Origin: a virus
Taxonomy: Duplodnaviria; Caudoviricetes
Virus record (IMG/VR): IMGVR_UViG_3300011989_000257
Location: 256,001 to 320,000 of that record
Length of the DNA stretch: 64,000 nucleotides
Reading direction: 5' to 3' (one strand)
How positions within the stretch are numbered: the first letter of the stretch is position 1; each line of letters opens with the position of its first letter. Position numbers and translations under genes: made by a program. The notes under the pieces were generated by a model. It was not told the origin of the DNA, made no database searches, and worked only from the letters and a program-made list of their open reading frames with translations. Of this stretch, positions 16,672 through 41,706 are shown piece after piece.

Positions 16672-16729
16672 GGAAGCTTTTACATGGTTCAGAATTTGCA
16701 GTTCCAAAAAATACTTGCTGTTAGCTTCC
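16672..16729 (-). ncRNA. CAGCAA-stem RNA 1 (cargo: Cys GCA anticodon stem-loop)
   Basis: GGAAGCT-AACAGCAAG...GGAA-CTGCAAA-TTCT...AGCTTCC. Confidence 0.7.
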
Positions 16730-16781
16730 TTAAATGAAAATAATAGGCTTGTTCCCACTCCCTAAATTTTAATATCTAGTG

Positions 16782-16856
16782 TAGCGAGTGTGAGAGTTGC
16801 ACTCACGTAGAACGGCTTATGAGACCGTGCTGGGACTACCTCCAGTCTAACTCGCA
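16782..16856 (-). tRNA. tRNA-Met(CAT), initiator-like
   Basis: ACGGT-CTCATAA-GCCGT; T loop TGCAACT. Confidence 0.75.
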
Positions 16857-17112
16857 ATGTTTAAAAACTTACGGATATACTTTATCAGGAATCTGGCTTT
16901 CTCTGCCGAAGACTTATTTTTACCTATCCACTCATAGGAACTTCACAGAGTGCTTCACACACCATTAGGTAGCATCGAATGAGATAGTATTCCATACGCT
17001 AGTGGAACTATATAGACATTGTTACATATCTCAATCTACATTCTTCTTAGTGTGTACCCTTGCGACAAATGTACCCACGCTAGTATATCTACGCCTCTAT
17101 CGTAAGTTTATG

Positions 17113-17187
17113 TGGACAAGATGGGACTCGAACCCACGACCCTCTGAATGCAAATCAGATGCTCTAGCCAAACTGAGCTACAAGCCC
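17113..17187 (-). tRNA. tRNA-Ala(TGC)
   Basis: Cloverleaf, G3:U70. Confidence 0.92.
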
Positions 17188-17251
17188 ATAAACATATTGT
17201 CAGTCACTAGGGAATCGAACCCTAATTTGCCTTTTGTGACCTTTGGAGACC

Positions 17252-17578
17252 CTATAGTTTCTCAACTACTTTTCCATAGATTTGGTTTTTTGATATCCAA
17301 CCATTCATGTGACCATGATTATTTCCAATTAAATACTCTTTATCATTTTTAATTGCGTGTATTAAATGCAAATAGTAATGACCCTTAACCTTGCAAAGTA
17401 CAATATCCTTTTTATTAAGTTTGGTGTCATCTTTAACTGGTTCACAAATAACCTCTTGTCCACTTTTAAGAATTGGAGTCATCGACTGTCCAAATCCTTG
17501 AAGTCTCCCAACCAATCCAGCTTTGAGTTTTTCAGCGCTTTCATGGTTTTCTTTTCCTTTAAAATCATATGGTCTCAT
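17252..17578 (-). CDS. peptidase S24/S26-like domain protein
   Basis: GQSMTP...DIVLCKVKG..YLH...IGNN..GKV. Confidence 0.65.
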   Translation of the reverse strand: MRPYDFKGKENHESAEKLKAGLVGRLQGFGQSMTPILKSGQEVICEPVKDDTKLNKKDIVLCKVKGHYYLHLIHAIKNDKEYLIGNNHGHMNGWISKNQIYGKVVEKL

Positions 17579-17738
17579 ATATTATTAAATATTAAAGCCA
17601 CATCAAAAATAATTGGTTAAAAACATCACATTTTACGAACCACATGAGTTCAAACTTCCCAATCCATAACAAATAGTAGCTATCTATCGTTAAAGTTTAA
17701 CGCTTTATTAACTTGGAAAAAGCGCTCCAAACGGTACG

Positions 17739-17862
17739 CAGGGATAGAAGGATTCGAACCAACGACCTTTTCATTAACAGTAAAGCATCAATCTGTTCCG
17801 AAGTCGAGATTGTATATAGCTTAAATCGCAACGAAATTACTCTACCACTGAGCTATATCCCT
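17739..17862 (-). tRNA. tRNA-Asn(GTT)-like with ~50 nt insertion in anticodon arm
   Basis: Acceptor, D and T arms intact; insert lies 5' of CTGTTAA loop. Confidence 0.6.
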
Positions 17863-17875
17863 ATTTAAACACAAA

Positions 17876-18660
17876 AAGACTGAGAACATTGTCTTATTGT
17901 TGATGCCATTTCGCAGCCCTTGGAGACTGTTGTTCACACGCTACCTTACAATAGCCGTAGACACCATGCACGGACAGTTTTGTGAAAACTACCAAACTCT
18001 TACTTGTTTAAACCTTTCGGTACAGCATCATAGATTTCAGTTCTTCGCCAAGCGCTTGCGGCTTCGCAGGATGCCTCCTGTTAACTCAGACGAGTACTTT
18101 TATTTTCTTGTTGGATTCCTTGCGAGTCCCCAACCCCTTCATATTGCAGAAGGATAAGTGCATTTTAGCTGCCAAGTGTCGCACACTTTTGCTATCATTC
18201 ATTTTTGATTCCTATATCAAAATTCTGCACTGTTATGGAAGATGAGGTGCGACTAATAGCTTCGTACCTTTTGAGTACGACCCACTAAATCACCTTCCTA
18301 TGCTGACTCACCACAAGTCAATCATTATATAGTATCATCCTTGCAGTTCTCAAACATTTCTGTCTGAGCAAGATACTATACTGAGCACAACACGCCAACT
18401 GGTGACTATTGCATCATGCTCCATATGGTAATCTGTTATATCACTATTCACCCAAAGATTCCTCACCCTTGAGAGCTTACACCTATGGTATTACCCACAA
18501 TGTAAACCGTACCATATGCTTTTCAGTGAAATACTTGAAGTTTCCCCCAAATATCTGCAACGCTTAACAGCTAATATGCGTCACATTTAATCCCATCACT
18601 GGTTTATCCTTATGGCTACGAAAGCTAGCCAAACCCCTCATTTTCAGCCGAAGCCTACAA
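17876..18660 (-). ncRNA. large structured ncRNA, GOLLD-like candidate
   Basis: ~780 nt with no credible ORF, higher GC, many GNRA/UUCG-capped hairpins on minus strand, flanked by tRNAs. Confidence 0.5.
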
Positions 18661-18671
18661 TGTTGGAATTG

Positions 18672-18784
18672 TTGGTAAGAAGAGATTTGCACTCTTGAAG
18701 ACTCCGAAGAGTCACATCAAGCACGAACTTGATGCCCATTTGTCTACATCAGTCTCTCGACTGTTCTCCTCTGGTACTTACCAA
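18672..18784 (-). ncRNA. tRNA-like RNA with D-loop hairpin (twin A)
   Basis: 8-bp acceptor, 7-bp anticodon stem with TTCGTG loop, UUCG variable arm, T loop TGCAAAT. Confidence 0.7.
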
Positions 18785-18989
18785 AAGGTGGTTTTTATAC
18801 TTGTCCACCACAAGGTGTATTGTGTAGTATTGTAAAGGCTGATTCATTTTTCAGAGCCAATTTAATGGTAAAGGACATCTGCTATATTTCATACAGTTGT
18901 ATGTTTGTCGCAACCTCACTTTCCTCGCCAACCTTTACTGCCGATTGCACCTGAGCATTTATACTACATTAACGCTTAACTGATACTCG

Positions 18990-19123
18990 TTGGTGAAGGT
19001 GAATTTGCATCACCGAAGACTCCGAAGAGCCACATTACTCACGAAAGTAATGCCCATTTGTCTACACCTATCATTTCATAAGCCACAACCGACTCTGATA
19101 GTTTCTCCTCTGGTATTCACCAA
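18990..19123 (-). ncRNA. tRNA-like RNA with D-loop hairpin (twin B)
   Basis: Paralog of twin A with compensatory stem changes. Confidence 0.7.
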
Positions 19124-39791: not shown

Positions 39792-39952
39792 ATTTGTAAA
39801 AACCATTCTACACCCAACACTTCCAGTTGGTTCCTACATCTACGTCTCTCTCCATTATGACCCATAGATTACACGATTCCGTCTCTAACGTCTCATAGGA
39901 TTATAAAGCAGGTCATCTGTCCTATGCCTTTTAGAACCTCGAATGATTTTTG

Positions 39953-40025
39953 TCAGGGAACTTGGACTCGAACCAAGAACAGCTGGTCTCCAAAGCCAGT
40001 CGTCTACCTATTGACGTACACCCTG
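39953..40025 (-). tRNA. tRNA-Pro(TGG)
   Basis: Cloverleaf, TTTGGAG loop, C1:G72. Confidence 0.7.
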
Positions 40026-40154
40026 AGTTAAAATGCCAACACTCTAGAATTCTTGCATTATATCCTCTATAGTCTTATGCTGCTCTTATTGTAATTCCAT
40101 TTATGGATACGATTCAATAATTAGAGGTTGCCTAAAGACTTGTGTTAACATTTG

Positions 40155-40240
40155 TCGGAGGAGAGGGACTCGAACCCCCAGTGTTTCTGATGTGCTGGTT
40201 TTACAGACCAGTGCTAGTCCACCATCCTAGCTGCCCTCCG
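40155..40240 (-). tRNA. tRNA-Tyr(GTA) with C1:G72
   Basis: CTGGT-CTGTAAA-ACCAG, long variable region, acceptor CGGAGGG/TCCTCCG-A. Confidence 0.85.
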
Positions 40241-40277
40241 ATTAAGCATAGGTTTCTCAACCACAATCCTTTCCTTG

Positions 40278-40634
40278 TTACTTAAATTTATATTCTATAA
40301 CATAGACATTTTTATTACCTCTGCGGTATTGTTCAATCTTTACATCATTATACATTTCTTTATGTCTTTCAGTAAAACCGCTTCTGATGAACTCAAAAAA
40401 TTTTTTCTCTTTTTCGTTGTCTGTTACGATGTATATGTCCTTAAATATATTTGTTTCTGGAACTCTACATGTCATACTTCTAACCCCTCTGAACTTGTTA
40501 TTGGTTGCCCAACCACCTTGTTCAATAAGGCCAATCGTAAACTCTTCCCAAATGGGAATATCAACTTTTAAAAATAAATTTTGTCCAAATACATCTTTTT
40601 CATTTAAATACTCTTTTGTAATTGCTTCTCTCAT
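40278..40634 (-). CDS. hypothetical protein
   Basis: ORF. Confidence 0.65.
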   Translation of the reverse strand: MREAITKEYLNEKDVFGQNLFLKVDIPIWEEFTIGLIEQGGWATNNKFRGVRSMTCRVPETNIFKDIYIVTDNEKEKKFFEFIRSGFTERHKEMYNDVKIEQYRRGNKNVYVIEYKFK

Positions 40635-40781
40635 TTGCTTCTTTATTTAGAACTACTAATGTAACTATTAATATCTTCTAATTCACCTTCAAGTTTAGCA
40701 AGCTTTTCTTTATGCCAATTAATCTTGTTTACTATAGTATTTTTTCTGTCGTTTAATATTTTTAAGTCACTATTATTCATT

Positions 40782-41219
40782 CTATTTAAATTTTCCTAGC
40801 CTTATAGCCTCAACAAGATAGTTATATACCGTTTCCCAATCTGTCTCGGCATCGAATCCGAACTTATCGTCTATTCCTACATTAAAATACGTCTTTTCAT
40901 CAAAGCAAGACAATTCGTTATTCTTTGTCTCGCTATTGCTGTTAACCATATCGAAGCTAATGCCATTAGCTTTAAAATATTCCAGATATTCATTTATCGA
41001 TTCCTTATGACTAGATGTCCAGAGTATGAGACTGATGTTCCTAGCATAACTCATTATCTGAAGTGCCTCCTTTGAGAATGGATACCACTTATGGTTTTCC
41101 TTCTCGTGGTAGCAAGCTTCAAATATCGTATCGTGGATGTCCACAAGCACATATATATGCTCCCAATTACGGTCTTTCATACGCTTGAAAGCGTTGTCGA
41201 AACTTTTCTCTATACTCAT
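40782..41219 (-). CDS. HAD-like phage protein
   Basis: LVDIHDTI, LWTSS, GIDDK motifs. Confidence 0.7.
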   Translation of the reverse strand: MSIEKSFDNAFKRMKDRNWEHIYVLVDIHDTIFEACYHEKENHKWYPFSKEALQIMSYARNISLILWTSSHKESINEYLEYFKANGISFDMVNSNSETKNNELSCFDEKTYFNVGIDDKFGFDAETDWETVYNYLVEAIRLGKFK

Positions 41220-41235
41220 AACATTATATTATTTG

Positions 41236-41306
41236 CCACACTAAAATGGACTCGAACCACCTACTTCAGAACGCCGTTCTGCGTGCTACCGTTACACCAT
41301 AGGTGA
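41236..41306 (-). ncRNA. tRNA-Gln-like body with 3-nt anticodon loop
   Basis: D arm GGTGTAACGGTAGCAC, CAGAAC-GGC-GTTCTG, T loop. Confidence 0.5.
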
Positions 41307-41439
41307 ATTGACCTCAACTTAACCATAATCTCCACGAGTTAACATTGGAAACTCATAATGTGAAAATAAGCAAGAATCGAACACTGCTTTGTTGAATTTA
41401 CCACAATCTCGGTCAGCGAACGGAGTCGAACCGTATTCG

Positions 41440-41512
41440 TTGGGATTGAGGGAATCGAACCCCCACAAGCCAAGAGCCAGAATCTTGCGTACTACCTTTA
41501 TACTAAACCCCA
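41440..41512 (-). tRNA. tRNA-Gln(CTG)
   Basis: CAAGA-TTCTGGC-TCTTG. Confidence 0.85.
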
Positions 41513-41628
41513 AAGTAAGCTGAAACTCTAGCTAGTAACGTATCATGGCAGCATCCTTACCTATTCTCTCCACCTCGCAGTGACGTGGGGCAATTTAGCC
41601 AATCAACGTAGTTTCAGCTATGTTGTAA

Positions 41629-41706
41629 GGGAACAATAAAAATTCGTTTATCTAAAACCCAAATCTAGTAACTAATTTTATCAATAATTACTTGCTGTAT
41701 GTTCCC
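41629..41706 (-). ncRNA. CAGCAA-stem RNA 12 (cargo: Pro TGG anticodon stem-loop)
   Basis: GGGAACA-TACAGCAAG...CTAGA-TTTGGGT-TTTAG...TGTTCCC. Confidence 0.7.

What the first reader, a model, noticed from the sequence alone, without database searches (positions are those of the whole stretch)
16672..41706. Family of 12 modular small RNAs: one conserved CAGCAA handle, interchangeable tRNA-derived cargos
Seen in sequence: twelve minus-strand elements (16672-16729, 19261-19328, 21605-21738, 25592-25718, 32546-32687, 32988-33139, 34520-34668, 35893-36042, 37637-37746, 38460-38575, 39589-39706, 41629-41706). Each starts GGRAACNNRCAGCAR and ends with the complement of its first 6-9 nt. The stem covaries (GGAAGCT/AGCTTCC, GGAAAC/GTTTCC, GGGAAC/GTTCCC, GGAATCTT/AAGATTCC) while the unpaired CAGCA is invariant, as expected for a protein-binding site. 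The enclosed cargo differs each time: permuted tRNA, whole tRNA body, bare anticodon hairpin, or other structure. Established knowledge: bacterial Y RNAs (YrlA) join a Ro60/Rsr-binding terminal stem to a tRNA-like module. Inference: this is an expanded Y-RNA-like adaptor or decoy library with a handle unlike the canonical Ro-binding helix. It could titrate host anticodon nucleases or tether tRNA-binding enzymes to a phage protein. I do not know of a description of this family.
Basis: partly seen in the sequence, partly recalled or inferred. Interest (0 to 1): 0.95.

Follow-up and report, generated by a model that had tools for sequence, protein, structure and literature searches.

The report
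Phage Y-like RNAs displaying tRNA parts
A 412-kb rumen-type phage encodes twelve small RNAs that share one conserved clamp ("handle") and each hold out a different piece of a tRNA, often a bare anticodon loop; they are most likely the RNA partners of the phage's Ro60-like ring protein and may serve as baits or adaptors in the fight over tRNAs between phage and host.

Summary
All twelve minus-strand elements exist at the stated places. Each has a 6-9 bp terminal stem with compensatory changes, followed by an invariant CAGCA. No other motif match in the 412-kb genome has a closing stem.

The cargos are tRNA-derived, apart from two structured cargos of unknown kind. They include bare anticodon hairpins, permuted tRNA bodies with the YrlA topology, tRNAs opened at the D loop, and normal-order tRNA-like bodies.

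The family is widespread. I found it in five sister megaphages, in dozens of other IMG/VR contigs, in E. coli phage wV8 and in Mycobacterium phage Bromden.

The phage's DUF2828/DUF7788 protein has the Ro60 fold. In 6 of 6 informative loci holding distant homologues (28-34% identity), and in both cultured phages, handle RNAs lie just downstream of that gene on the same strand.

In orthologous elements the anticodon triplet either switches with almost no other change or stays frozen while the rest drifts. That marks it as the selected specificity determinant and argues against decoding tRNAs.

Best reading: a Y-RNA-like library docking on a Ro60-like protein and displaying tRNA mimics. Binding, expression and the decoy role were not tested.

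This scan found the same family earlier on other DNA. I found no description of it in the papers searched. The nearest described RNAs are YrlA and the Dictyostelium Class I RNAs.

The parts
16672..16729 (-). e01, 58 nt: handle plus a bare anticodon-type hairpin (7-bp stem, loop CUGCAAA, triplet GCA as in tRNA-Cys)
   Evidence: 37.8 bits
19261..19328 (-). e02, 68 nt: handle plus an extended hairpin ending in loop CUUUUAA (UUU, Lys-type). tRNA-Met starts 14 nt downstream.
   Evidence: 53.4 bits. Relatives carry UAU or UGA at the same place.
21605..21738 (-). e03, 134 nt: handle, a small hairpin, then a permuted tRNA body (T arm, acceptor stem CGAGGGG/CUUCUUG closed by a 6-nt loop, D arm), which is the YrlA topology
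   Evidence: (YrlA 31.2 bits, gathering score 69)
25592..25718 (-). e04, 127 nt: handle plus an anticodon hairpin (CUGUCAA, GUC Asp-type), a T arm and a closed 7-bp acceptor; no D arm. tRNA-Met starts 6 nt downstream.
   Evidence: The G5 orthologue has GUU.
32546..32687 (-). e05, 142 nt: handle (9-bp stem, CAGCAG) plus a structured cargo that is not tRNA-like; identity unknown
   Evidence: (no Rfam match). Orthologues in L022 and L015.
32987..33140 (-). e06, 154 nt: handle (A-U first pair, CAGCAG) plus a three-hairpin cargo conserved in six phages; identity unknown
   Evidence: (29 pairs, 5 with compensatory changes)
34520..34668 (-). e07, 149 nt: handle plus a permuted class II tRNA body opened between nt 31 and 32. 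Order: anticodon loop AUGAGGG (GAG), long variable arm, T arm, closed acceptor, D arm. It sits 5 nt after tRNA-Met and 6 nt before tRNA-Leu.
35893..36042 (-). e08, 150 nt: handle plus a permuted tRNA-Gly(UCC)-like body (loop AUUCCAA, T arm, closed acceptor CCGCCAC/GUGGCGG, D arm). It sits 3 nt after tRNA-Gly(CCC) and 6 nt before tRNA-Gly(GCC).
   Evidence: (YrlA 39.2 bits, model positions 23-86 only)
37637..37746 (-). e09, 110 nt: handle plus a normal-order tRNA-Ser-like body (7-bp stem, loop CUUGAAA, UGA) without a proper acceptor stem. tRNA finders call it tRNA-Ser.
   Evidence: (tRNA 38.4 bits)
38460..38575 (-). e10, 116 nt: handle in place of the D loop. Order: D-stem 3' strand, intact anticodon arm (UUCAUAA, CAU), T arm, acceptor closed by a 4-nt loop, D-stem 5' strand.
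   Evidence: 86.6 bits
39589..39706 (-). e11, 118 nt: handle plus a normal-order tRNA-like body with a conserved 6-nt 'anticodon' loop AUUUUA and a mismatched acceptor. ARAGORN calls it 'tRNA-???'.
   Evidence: tRNA 41 bits; loop identical in six phages
41629..41706 (-). e12, 78 nt: handle plus two hairpins, the second with loop UUUGGGU (UGG, Pro-type)
55654..57336 (-). Gene of the 560-aa Ro60-fold protein (DUF2828 + DUF7788/vWA with an intact MIDAS motif DxSxS): the proposed protein partner
   Evidence: (phrog_850 'RNA-binding protein', 2.4e-47)
47641..49005 (-). RtcB RNA ligase gene, same strand, between the Ro-like gene and the tRNA array. This is context; a functional link is not shown.

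Best explanation
The twelve elements are small RNA genes of one family. They are transcribed with the phage's tRNA array and released next to tRNAs. The shared handle consists of the 6-9 bp terminal stem, the single-stranded R-CAGCA-R directly after its 5' strand, and an A-rich strand opposite. It is most likely the docking site for the phage's Ro60-like ring protein (DUF2828/vWA, 55654-57336), as the Y-RNA stem is for Ro60/Rsr.

The part enclosed by the handle is a display module copied from tRNA: a bare anticodon hairpin, an anticodon arm with T arm, or a whole permuted body with a closed acceptor stem as in YrlA. None has free acceptor ends, so these RNAs do not decode. They present tRNA look-alikes, above all anticodon loops, to factors that recognise tRNA. 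The most likely targets are host anticodon nucleases and other tRNA-directed defence or toxin enzymes, which would be baited or sequestered. Alternatively the modules tether tRNA-handling enzymes to the Ro-like particle.

Shown here: the family, its covarying stem, the invariant motif, the tRNA-derived cargos, the Ro60 fold of the protein, the genomic linkage of RNA and protein genes across distant phages, and selection focused on the anticodon triplet.

Inferred: that the RNAs are expressed as discrete species, that the handle binds the Ro-like protein, and that the cargo acts as bait or adaptor.
For: 1. RNA-level structure. Compensatory stem changes appear in the 12 and in 59 distinct members (98.0% paired, 5/7 pairs compensatory, 72 double-change cells against 19.6 +/- 3.5, 0/500). 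In distant phages the stems share no sequence (AGGTCTC, AGTCCGC, GGACGTT, AGACCGT, TGGACGC) while CAGCA stays.

2. Orientation. All copies lie on the tRNA strand, none on the other. Several sit 3-7 nt from tRNA ends.

3. Protein partner. The model has pLDDT 91.6 and pTM 0.91. Its 13 best PDB matches are all Ro60/Rsr/TROVE over the full length (TM 0.43-0.58, E 5e-10 to 8e-7), and the next matches are vWA domains only. The MIDAS residues D340, S342 and S344 are invariant in 78 homologues. tblastn links the protein to mycobacteriophage 'Ro-like RNA binding proteins'.

4. Linkage. In 6 of 6 informative contigs with homologues of 28-34% identity, 2-4 handle RNAs lie 0.06-3.6 kb downstream on the same strand. 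The same holds in E. coli phage wV8 (four elements in the tRNA array right after the gene) and Mycobacterium phage Bromden (three elements right after the gene). Six of 7 complete records with elements carry the gene.

5. YrlA-like topology of e03 and e08.

6. Anticodon as the selected determinant. Orthologues differ only there: GCU against GUA with 0/60 other changes, and GUA against AGA with 7/134. Others keep it frozen: GCA 0/3 while 20/50 other positions changed, and the 6-nt AUUUUA loop is identical in six phages. One body carries CAU, GAU, AAU or CGG in different phages.

7. Published context. Y RNA genes lie beside Ro60 genes and YrlA mimics tRNA (PMC4201824). A phage Ro60 binds two phage Y-like RNAs (PMC12135203). 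A Ro60-like protein of phage Bas63, encoded upstream of tRNA genes, counters the Ppl defence system (PMC11482910).
Against: No test of binding is available for RNA-protein pairs.

In this genome the Ro-like gene is 14-40 kb from the RNAs rather than adjacent.

One 53-kb record rated complete carries an element but gave no match to the Ro-like profile (G025).

The handle does not resemble the published Ro-binding motifs (GGUCCGA; GNCGAAN0-1G). Pfam TROVE itself does not match the protein or the genome.

The bait idea rests only on sequence evolution of the loops. No anticodon nuclease of the unknown host is known. Two cargos (e05, e06) are not tRNA-like.
Confidence: 0.6

Rival explanations
1. 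The handle is a processing, stabilising or docking signal for some other factor, such as an RRM or La-type protein, RtcB or an RNase. Or it is simply an end-clamp that protects tRNA-derived decoys. On this view the Ro-like protein is a neighbour and not the partner.
For: Binding was not tested. Dictyostelium Class I RNAs, with the same stem plus ACAGCAA design, are reported to bind an RRM protein, Rnp1A (PMC7919456). One complete 53-kb phage record has an element but no Ro-like match. RtcB lies in the same gene block here.
Against: The only gene that travels with the RNAs across unrelated phage backgrounds is the Ro-like one. RtcB is absent from those neighbourhoods. An invariant single-stranded hexamer is more than an end-clamp needs.
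Confidence: 0.15
2. The displayed anticodon loops work as guides. By loop-loop (anticodon-anticodon) or codon-like pairing they capture particular tRNAs or RNA fragments and bring them to the Ro-like ring, to an exonuclease, or to RtcB for decay or repair.
For: Canonical 7-nt loops with U33 and a purine at 37 are kept. The triplet is the selected part. Ro60 particles are known to hand RNAs to PNPase (PMC4201824, PMC12135203). RtcB is nearby.
Against: No complementarity rule could be derived. Several cargos have no anticodon loop or a 6-nt loop. This is pure inference.
Confidence: 0.1
3. The elements with tRNA bodies are permuted or interrupted tRNA genes. The handle is cut out, the ends are joined by RtcB, and RNase P and Z open the acceptor loop. 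The result would be decoding tRNAs, as for the permuted tRNA genes of red algae.
For: The order '3' half before 5' half' holds in e03, e07, e08 and e10. The phage encodes RtcB. M. smegmatis YrlA is cut by RNase P and receives CCA (PMC4201824).
Against: Five of the 12 (e01, e02, e05, e06, e12) have no tRNA body at all. The same body carries CAU, GAU, AAU or CGG in sister phages with the acceptor unchanged, which does not fit aminoacylation identity. e11 keeps a 6-nt loop and a mismatched acceptor in six phages. No endonuclease or bulge-helix-bulge signal was seen.
Confidence: 0.08
4. The elements are DNA-level repeats: miniature transposons, recombination or homing sites, or replication signals with terminal inverted repeats.
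For: Inverted termini flank variable inserts. An HNH endonuclease ORF lies in the array (25855-26631).
Against: The termini covary instead of being conserved. All copies share the tRNA strand. The inserts are folded tRNA parts under selection. No target-site duplications were seen.
Confidence: 0.02

Closest known systems
YrlA/YrlB-type bacterial and phage Y RNAs with Rsr/Ro60 (Rfam RF02553; Chen et al. 2014, PMC4201824; Thermus phage phiLo Yrl1/2, PMC12135203)
   Same: Small RNAs closed by a 5'/3' terminal stem. A conserved motif sits on the 5' strand side. The genes lie beside and co-oriented with a Ro60-fold gene, with several RNAs per locus. At least one RNA carries a tRNA-like module in which the acceptor stem is closed and the anticodon side runs into the terminal stem (e03, e07, e08). 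Mycobacteriophage members next to 'Ro-like' genes carry the same ACAGCAA handle.
   Different: The handle motif is R-CAGCA-R, not GNCGAAN0-1G or GGUCCGA. Rfam YrlA scores are 31-39 bits against a gathering score of 69, and only the tRNA-like core aligns. The protein belongs to the DUF2828/DUF7788 families and does not match Pfam TROVE. There are 12 copies spread through a tRNA array instead of 1-2 beside the gene. The cargos include bare anticodon hairpins, D-loop-opened and normal-order tRNAs, and non-tRNA folds. Anticodon triplets switch between sister phages.
Dictyostelium Class I RNAs (Rfam RF01414; PMC7919456; published search pattern GTTGRCCTTACAGCAA...GTCAACTG in PMC5054030)
   Same: A short covarying stem joins the 5' and 3' ends. 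An about 11-nt conserved single-stranded motif containing ACAGCAA follows the 5' stem strand directly. The interior is variable and each genome has many copies. In distant phage members even the flanks resemble (A-AG start, C-UGU end). RF01414 is the Rfam family that hits distant phage members end to end at their exact borders, with 5 hits of 21-25 bits.
   Different: All scores lie below the gathering score of 41.5, and there is no hit on the window's own elements. Class I RNAs are eukaryotic, 42-65 nt, with their own upstream promoter element. No tRNA-derived cargo is reported for them. Their known binder is an RRM protein, and no Ro-like partner is described. Whether the likeness is homology or convergence is open.
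Phage-encoded tRNAs that evade or neutralise tRNA-targeting defences (T5 tRNA-Lys against PARIS, PMC11464382; anticodon-loop variants, eLife 2023 as cited in PMC11482910)
   Same: They are encoded in phage tRNA arrays. Selection acts on the anticodon loop, and the context is defence systems that cut tRNA.
   Different: Those are complete, chargeable tRNAs that replace cut host tRNAs. The elements here have no free acceptor ends and cannot decode. Any anti-defence role would be as bait or adaptor.
Ro60-like gp130 of E. coli phage Bas63 (PhageMaP preprint, PMC11482910)
   Same: A Ro60-fold protein is encoded directly upstream of a tRNA gene block in a Felix O1-like phage. The authors suspected that some 'tRNAs' there are Y RNAs. 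A relative, wV8, carries four handle RNAs in exactly that place.
   Different: In Bas63 the protein was shown genetically to counter the Ppl system (ATPase plus PHP nuclease). No RNA partner was identified, and nothing links Ppl to tRNA.

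Membership tests
YrlA (Rfam RF02553) | Match to the Rfam model at or above the gathering score (69 bits) | tested here: not met
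   The best scores are 39.2 bits (e08, model positions 23-86 only) and 31.2 bits (e03). The other ten elements give no credible match.
YrlA (Rfam RF02553) | tRNA-like module with T arm, closed acceptor stem and D arm, enclosed by the stem formed by the RNA ends | tested here: met
   Met for e03, e07 and e08. The other nine have other cargos.
YrlA (Rfam RF02553) | 5' motif GNCGAAN0-1G, proposed as the Ro60 contact (PMC4201824) | tested here: not met
   The equivalent position holds R-CAGCA-R in 61/61 members.
Y RNA in the functional sense (Ro60 partner RNA) | Encoded near, and on the same strand as, a Ro60-type gene | tested here: met
   Same strand, 14-40 kb away in this genome. Within 0.06-3.6 kb in 6/6 distant loci and in phages wV8 and Bromden.
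Y RNA in the functional sense (Ro60 partner RNA) | Physically bound by the Ro60-type protein | not testable with these tools
   No RNA-protein binding prediction or experimental data are at hand.
Dictyostelium Class I RNA (Rfam RF01414) | Match to the Rfam model at or above the gathering score (41.5 bits) | tested here: not met
   No hit in the window at E<=5 or on e02 at E<=10. Distant phage members score 21-25 bits, end to end.
Dictyostelium Class I RNA (Rfam RF01414) | Short terminal stem, plus a conserved motif containing ACAGCAA directly after the 5' stem strand, plus a variable interior | tested here: met
   compared with the published pattern in PMC5054030 and the description in PMC7919456.
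Dictyostelium Class I RNA (Rfam RF01414) | Dictyostelid origin, DUSE promoter, length of 42-65 nt | tested here: not met
   This is a phage genome. The elements are 58-154 nt and embedded in a tRNA operon.
Decoding tRNA (Rfam RF00005) | Cloverleaf with a free, paired 7-bp acceptor end, a 7-nt anticodon loop, and a body matching the anticodon identity | tested here: not met
   e09, e10 and e11 reach the tRNA gathering score (38.4, 31.9, 41.0 bits). But their ends are locked in the handle, e11 has a 6-nt loop and acceptor mismatches, and anticodons switch on an unchanged body.
Ro60/TROVE protein family (for the proposed partner) | Ring of HEAT-like helices plus a vWA domain with a MIDAS motif | tested here: met
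   High-confidence model. The 13 top PDB matches are all Ro60/Rsr/TROVE over the full length. DxSxS is invariant.
Ro60/TROVE protein family (for the proposed partner) | Match to Pfam TROVE (PF05731) | tested here: not met
   No TROVE match in the genome. The protein matches DUF2828 and DUF7788. Sequence searches of the PDB find nothing.
Permuted tRNA genes (red-alga type) | The 3' half lies before the 5' half and is matured through a circular intermediate into a functional tRNA | tested here: inconclusive
   The gene order is met for e03, e07, e08 and e10. Maturation is not testable. The anticodon switches on a constant body and the body-less members argue against it.

The most novel reading that the evidence does not exclude
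Phages carry a programmable 'anticodon display' particle. A Ro60-like ring is loaded through one universal handle with a library of RNAs, each presenting a different tRNA anticodon loop or tRNA body. The particle would bait, sense or neutralise host enzymes that attack specific tRNAs, and the triplets would be swapped quickly in an arms race. The same handle in Dictyostelium Class I RNAs would then mean that this orphan eukaryotic RNA class belongs to the same ancient RNA-protein system.
Probability: 0.3. Interest if true: 0.9.

Novelty: new variant of a known kind. Interest (0 to 1): 0.8.

Why it matters
Ro60 and Y RNAs are known from animals and some bacteria, but what the RNA's variable part does is still debated. 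Here the variable part is readable: it is a tRNA piece, often just an anticodon loop, and its triplet is what selection acts on. If the reading is right, three things follow.

First, it defines a second, widespread handle type for Ro60-like proteins and assigns a function to the DUF2828/DUF7788 families.

Second, it points to a new phage counter-defence principle, RNA baits for tRNA-directed immunity. That can be tested directly in tractable phages, namely Felix O1 relatives in E. coli and mycobacteriophages, because the same RNAs are there. In Bas63 the protein already has a counter-defence phenotype.

Third, it corrects annotation. Three of the twelve are called tRNAs by standard tools, and others lie under spurious small ORFs.

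The likeness to Dictyostelium Class I RNAs also offers a lead for an RNA class whose function has been open since 2004.

Tried and rejected
- Megablast of 12 kb of the array against cultured phages gave no match.
- Pfam TROVE gave no match in the genome. Sequence and profile searches of the PDB with the Ro-like protein gave nothing. Only the fold comparison shows the Ro60 relationship.
- The search for related loci with the diverse alignment failed for lack of a conserved stretch. I used the look-up of encoding contigs instead.
- Two of the eight contigs looked up for distant homologues ended too close to the gene to be informative (L078, L085).
- Rfam Class I (RF01414) gave no hit on e02 at E<=10 or in the array at E<=5.
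- Rfam gave nothing for the e05/e06 cargos.
- The handle-like site inside the 3' end of the Ro-like ORF (55673-55724; CM 15.8 bits, E 0.73) is rejected as chance. In 12 relatives the 5' strand changes without compensation.
- A possible 13th member at 20738-20909 (CAGTAA) is rejected. It is one of many background hits of a relaxed scan, 76 on the minus and 51 on the plus strand.
- Recent duplication of neighbouring tRNAs as the cargo source is not supported. Only T-arm-level similarity was found, and e11 resembles tRNA-Pro moderately.
- MAFFT could not align the 3' stems of distant members, so formal pair counts were made on the 12 and on the CM-fitted alignment only.
- The protein atlas look-up gave only viral DUF2828 clusters and no information on eukaryotes.
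- A literature search for DUF2828 gave plant and tardigrade papers without functional data.

Full report
CONTEXT. The window is bases 256001-320000 of a 412,514-bp IMG/VR virus record rated complete. It has 35% G+C, and almost every gene lies on the minus strand. It holds 39 tRNA genes, including a CUA suppressor, plus a tmRNA, and Rfam confirms them. Upstream in the direction of transcription lie a sigma factor, a DUF2828/DUF7788 protein (55654-57336), TyrRS, a QueE-like and an NAD-synthetase-like protein, and RtcB (47641-49005).

THE OBSERVATION. Eight match exactly and four with one mismatch. No shuffle reached the observed count. Each ends with the complement of its first 6-9 bases.

On the alignment of the twelve, taking element 6 as 32987-33140, the 7-bp stem is 98.8% paired. 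Four of seven pairs show changes on both sides. No shuffle reached the observed covariation, and sliding the 3' partner destroys pairing.

Elsewhere in the 412-kb genome, motif-like matches lie in coding sequence and have no closing stem. A covariance model built from the twelve recovers all of them (E 4e-17 to 6e-6). It gives no other full-length match in the window below E 0.01.

WHAT THE CARGOS ARE.
- e01 and e02 are bare anticodon-type hairpins, with loops CUGCAAA and CUUUUAA.
- e12 has two hairpins, one with loop UUUGGGU.
- e04 has an anticodon arm (CUGUCAA), a T arm and a closed acceptor stem.
- e10 is a tRNA opened at the D loop, with an intact anticodon arm (UUCAUAA).
- e03, e07 and e08 are permuted bodies: T arm, acceptor closed by a loop, then D arm. 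In e07 and e08 the full 7-nt anticodon loop is attached to the 3' strand of the anticodon stem, so the break lies between nt 31 and 32.
- e09 and e11 are normal-order bodies whose ends run into the handle. e11 has a 6-nt loop, AUUUUA.
- e05 and e06 are folded but not tRNA-like. e06's three hairpins are conserved with compensatory changes in six phages. Rfam gives nothing for either.

Standard tools call e09, e10 (in part) and e11 tRNAs.

RELATIVES. Five sister phage records, whose Ro-like protein is 76-86% identical, all carry 5-10 exact-pattern copies on one strand only. A reversed-pattern control gave 0. My scanner found 56 elements in the six genomes and none on the opposite strand.

An exact pattern with a gap found 55 further stretches in IMG/VR. 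Most are clearly real, mostly from rumen-type samples, with Lys, Cys, Asp, Tyr, Ile or Pro-type loops.

The covariance model found 61 matches below E 5e-4. They include stem variants my regular expression had missed (GGGUAC/GUACCC, GGAUGC/GCAUCC). CAGCA is present in 61 of 61 although the model does not force it. On these, 98.0% of cells pair and 5 of 7 pairs are compensatory, with 72 double-change cells against 19.6 +/- 3.5 in shuffles. The caveat is that this alignment is fitted to the model.

THE ANTICODON TRIPLET IS WHAT SELECTION SEES. Orthologous elements in sister phages show two regimes.
- Switching. Two 63-nt elements differ only by GCU against GUA, 2 of 3 triplet positions against 0 of 60 others. 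Further cases are GUA against AGA with 7/134 other changes, and AGA against AAA with 3/104. The D-loop-opened body carries CAU, GAU, AAU or CGG on an otherwise conserved frame. One short element carries GUG, GCU, GUA or GUC. e02-type elements carry UUU, UAU or UGA. e04-type elements carry GUC or GUU.
- Freezing. GCA is unchanged while 20 of 50 other positions differ. The AUUUUA loop is identical in six phages, and UGG and UCC are likewise kept.

An anticodon that changes identity on an unchanged acceptor and body is hard to reconcile with aminoacylation. It fits a display function.

THE PROTEIN. The 560-aa product of 55654-57336 matches DUF2828, DUF7788 and phrog_850 'RNA-binding protein'. It does not match Pfam TROVE or any PDB sequence.

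With a diverse alignment of 78 homologues the model reaches pLDDT 91.6 and pTM 0.91. Its 13 best PDB matches are all Ro60, Rsr or the Thermus phage phiLo Ro60. They align over the full length, with TM 0.43-0.58 and E 5e-10 to 8e-7. After them come only isolated vWA domains at E above 1e-3. The MIDAS residues DxSxS are invariant.

tblastn finds homologues in 553 cultured phage records. They include Felix O1-like coliphages and the mycobacteriophage 'Ro-like RNA binding proteins'.

LINKAGE OF RNA AND PROTEIN GENES. I looked up contigs encoding eight representatives only 28-37% identical to the window's protein. Six were informative, with proteins 28-34% identical. In all six, 2-4 handle RNAs lie on the same strand 0.06-3.6 kb downstream of the gene, often in tandem. 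Their stems have unrelated sequences, and CAGCA[AG] is constant.

In E. coli phage wV8, four elements lie among the first tRNAs right after the gene, and one has a permuted tRNA body. In Mycobacterium phage Bromden, three ACAGCAA-handle elements fill the gap right after the 'Ro-like RNA binding protein' gene. The middle one is a permuted tRNA with a weak YrlA hit.

Among records that carry real elements and are at least 90% complete, 6 of 7 hold the gene. RtcB does not travel with the RNAs in these neighbourhoods.

COMPARISON WITH WHAT IS KNOWN.
- YrlA. Rfam YrlA hits e08 (39.2 bits) and e03 (31.2 bits), well below the gathering score of 69. Only the tRNA-like core aligns, and the handle does not. 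Chen et al. 2014 described YrlA-like RNAs beside Ro60 genes in 254 bacteria and 22 phages. They proposed a 5' motif, GNCGAAN0-1G, as the Ro60 contact and noted that Ro60 mainly touches the 5' strand. The CAGCA motif here occupies the equivalent place but is a different sequence.
- Phage Ro60. Thermus phage phiLo Ro60 binds two phage Y-like RNAs and recruits host PNPase.
- Bas63. A preprint shows that the Ro60-like gp130 of coliphage Bas63, encoded just upstream of tRNA genes, counters the Ppl defence. It guesses that some of those 'tRNAs' are Y RNAs.
- Dictyostelium Class I RNAs. The published search pattern is GTTGRCCTTACAGCAA...GTCAACTG: a short terminal stem, then ACAGCAA, then a variable interior. 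Rfam's Class I model hits distant phage members end to end at their exact borders. There are five hits of 21-25 bits against a gathering score of 41.5. It does not hit the window's own elements.
- I found no paper describing the CAGCA-handle family or its anticodon display.
- Earlier notes of this scan describe the same family in at least 24 other genomes. I tested their two main claims here independently: linkage to the DUF2828 gene and the Class I likeness.

MECHANISM. Shown:
- a real, widespread RNA family with a covarying terminal stem and an invariant single-stranded hexamer;
- tRNA-derived cargo without free acceptor ends;
- a Ro60-fold protein encoded in the same genomes, usually right next to the RNAs;
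- selection concentrated on the displayed triplet.

Inferred:
- the handle docks the RNA on the Ro-like ring;
- the particle presents tRNA look-alikes to tRNA-recognising factors, most plausibly host anticodon nucleases or other tRNA-directed defence enzymes, as bait, sensor or tether.

I put about 0.6 on 'Ro-like partner RNAs displaying tRNA mimics', and within that about half on the bait role. The rivals are another protein partner or a mere clamp (0.15), a guide function through loop-loop pairing (0.1), permuted pre-tRNAs matured with RtcB (0.08), and DNA-level repeats (0.02).

LIMITS. The co-occurrence sample is small and has no formal background rate. The host is unknown. Two cargos remain unexplained.

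Noticed in passing
window 17877-18298 (-), with 17739-17862 (-): A GOLLD-like RNA covers the full Rfam model (1-416) at 74.8 bits, E 7e-18, below the gathering score of 150. It is followed directly by a 124-nt tRNA match with a long insertion.
   Followed up: no
window 18672-19152 (-): Two copies of an unannotated structured RNA. Shared blocks include GGTGGACAA..AAAAACCACC, TACCAGAGGAGAA, GTAGACAAATGGGCAT, CTCTTCGGAGTC and a T-arm-like hairpin. The paired segments differ between the copies.
   Followed up: no
window 21739-21830 (-) and 39707-39790 (-): Unannotated tRNA-like 3' parts lie directly upstream of e03 (T arm, then ...CACAAGCACCA, with an encoded CCA) and of e11 (8-bp acceptor-like stem UCUGGAGG/CCUCCAGA plus a T arm around an odd interior). 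ARAGORN finds no normal tRNA there.
   Followed up: partly
window 28660-28700 (-): A hairpin, CUAGG-AACAGCAA-CCUAG, places the family's motif in its loop. It lies in a 130-nt non-coding stretch just upstream of tRNA-Ser(GCU). Whether it is a rearranged handle or chance is not known.
   Followed up: no
window 15506-15597 (-), 20262-20568 (-): A suppressor tRNA with anticodon CUA (called 'Pyl' by ARAGORN) and a phage tmRNA (tag GENIDSPAYAMAIAA). Together they suggest amber recoding late in infection.
   Followed up: no
window 25287-25625, 35463-35945, 35936-36265 (-): ORFs of 109-160 aa listed mechanically overlap e04, e08 and neighbouring tRNAs and are almost certainly spurious. In phage wV8 a small annotated CDS (gene 48) likewise lies over handle RNAs.
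   Followed up: partly
L042 (IMGVR_UViG_3300032030_000117, 52.8 kb), 732-790: A 53-kb record rated complete carries a convincing handle RNA with a Pro-type loop (UUGGGAU), but gave no match to the Ro-like profile.
   Followed up: no
window 44918-46207 (-), 25855-26631 (-), 5609-9334 (-): A TelA-like protein (4e-71), an HNH endonuclease ORF inside the tRNA array, and two DUF4114 proteins.
   Followed up: no
L081 3367-5898; L083 6349-6421: In distant phages the handle RNAs are also followed at once by tRNA arrays. The association of Ro-like gene, then handle RNAs, then tRNAs recurs in unrelated backgrounds.
   Followed up: partly
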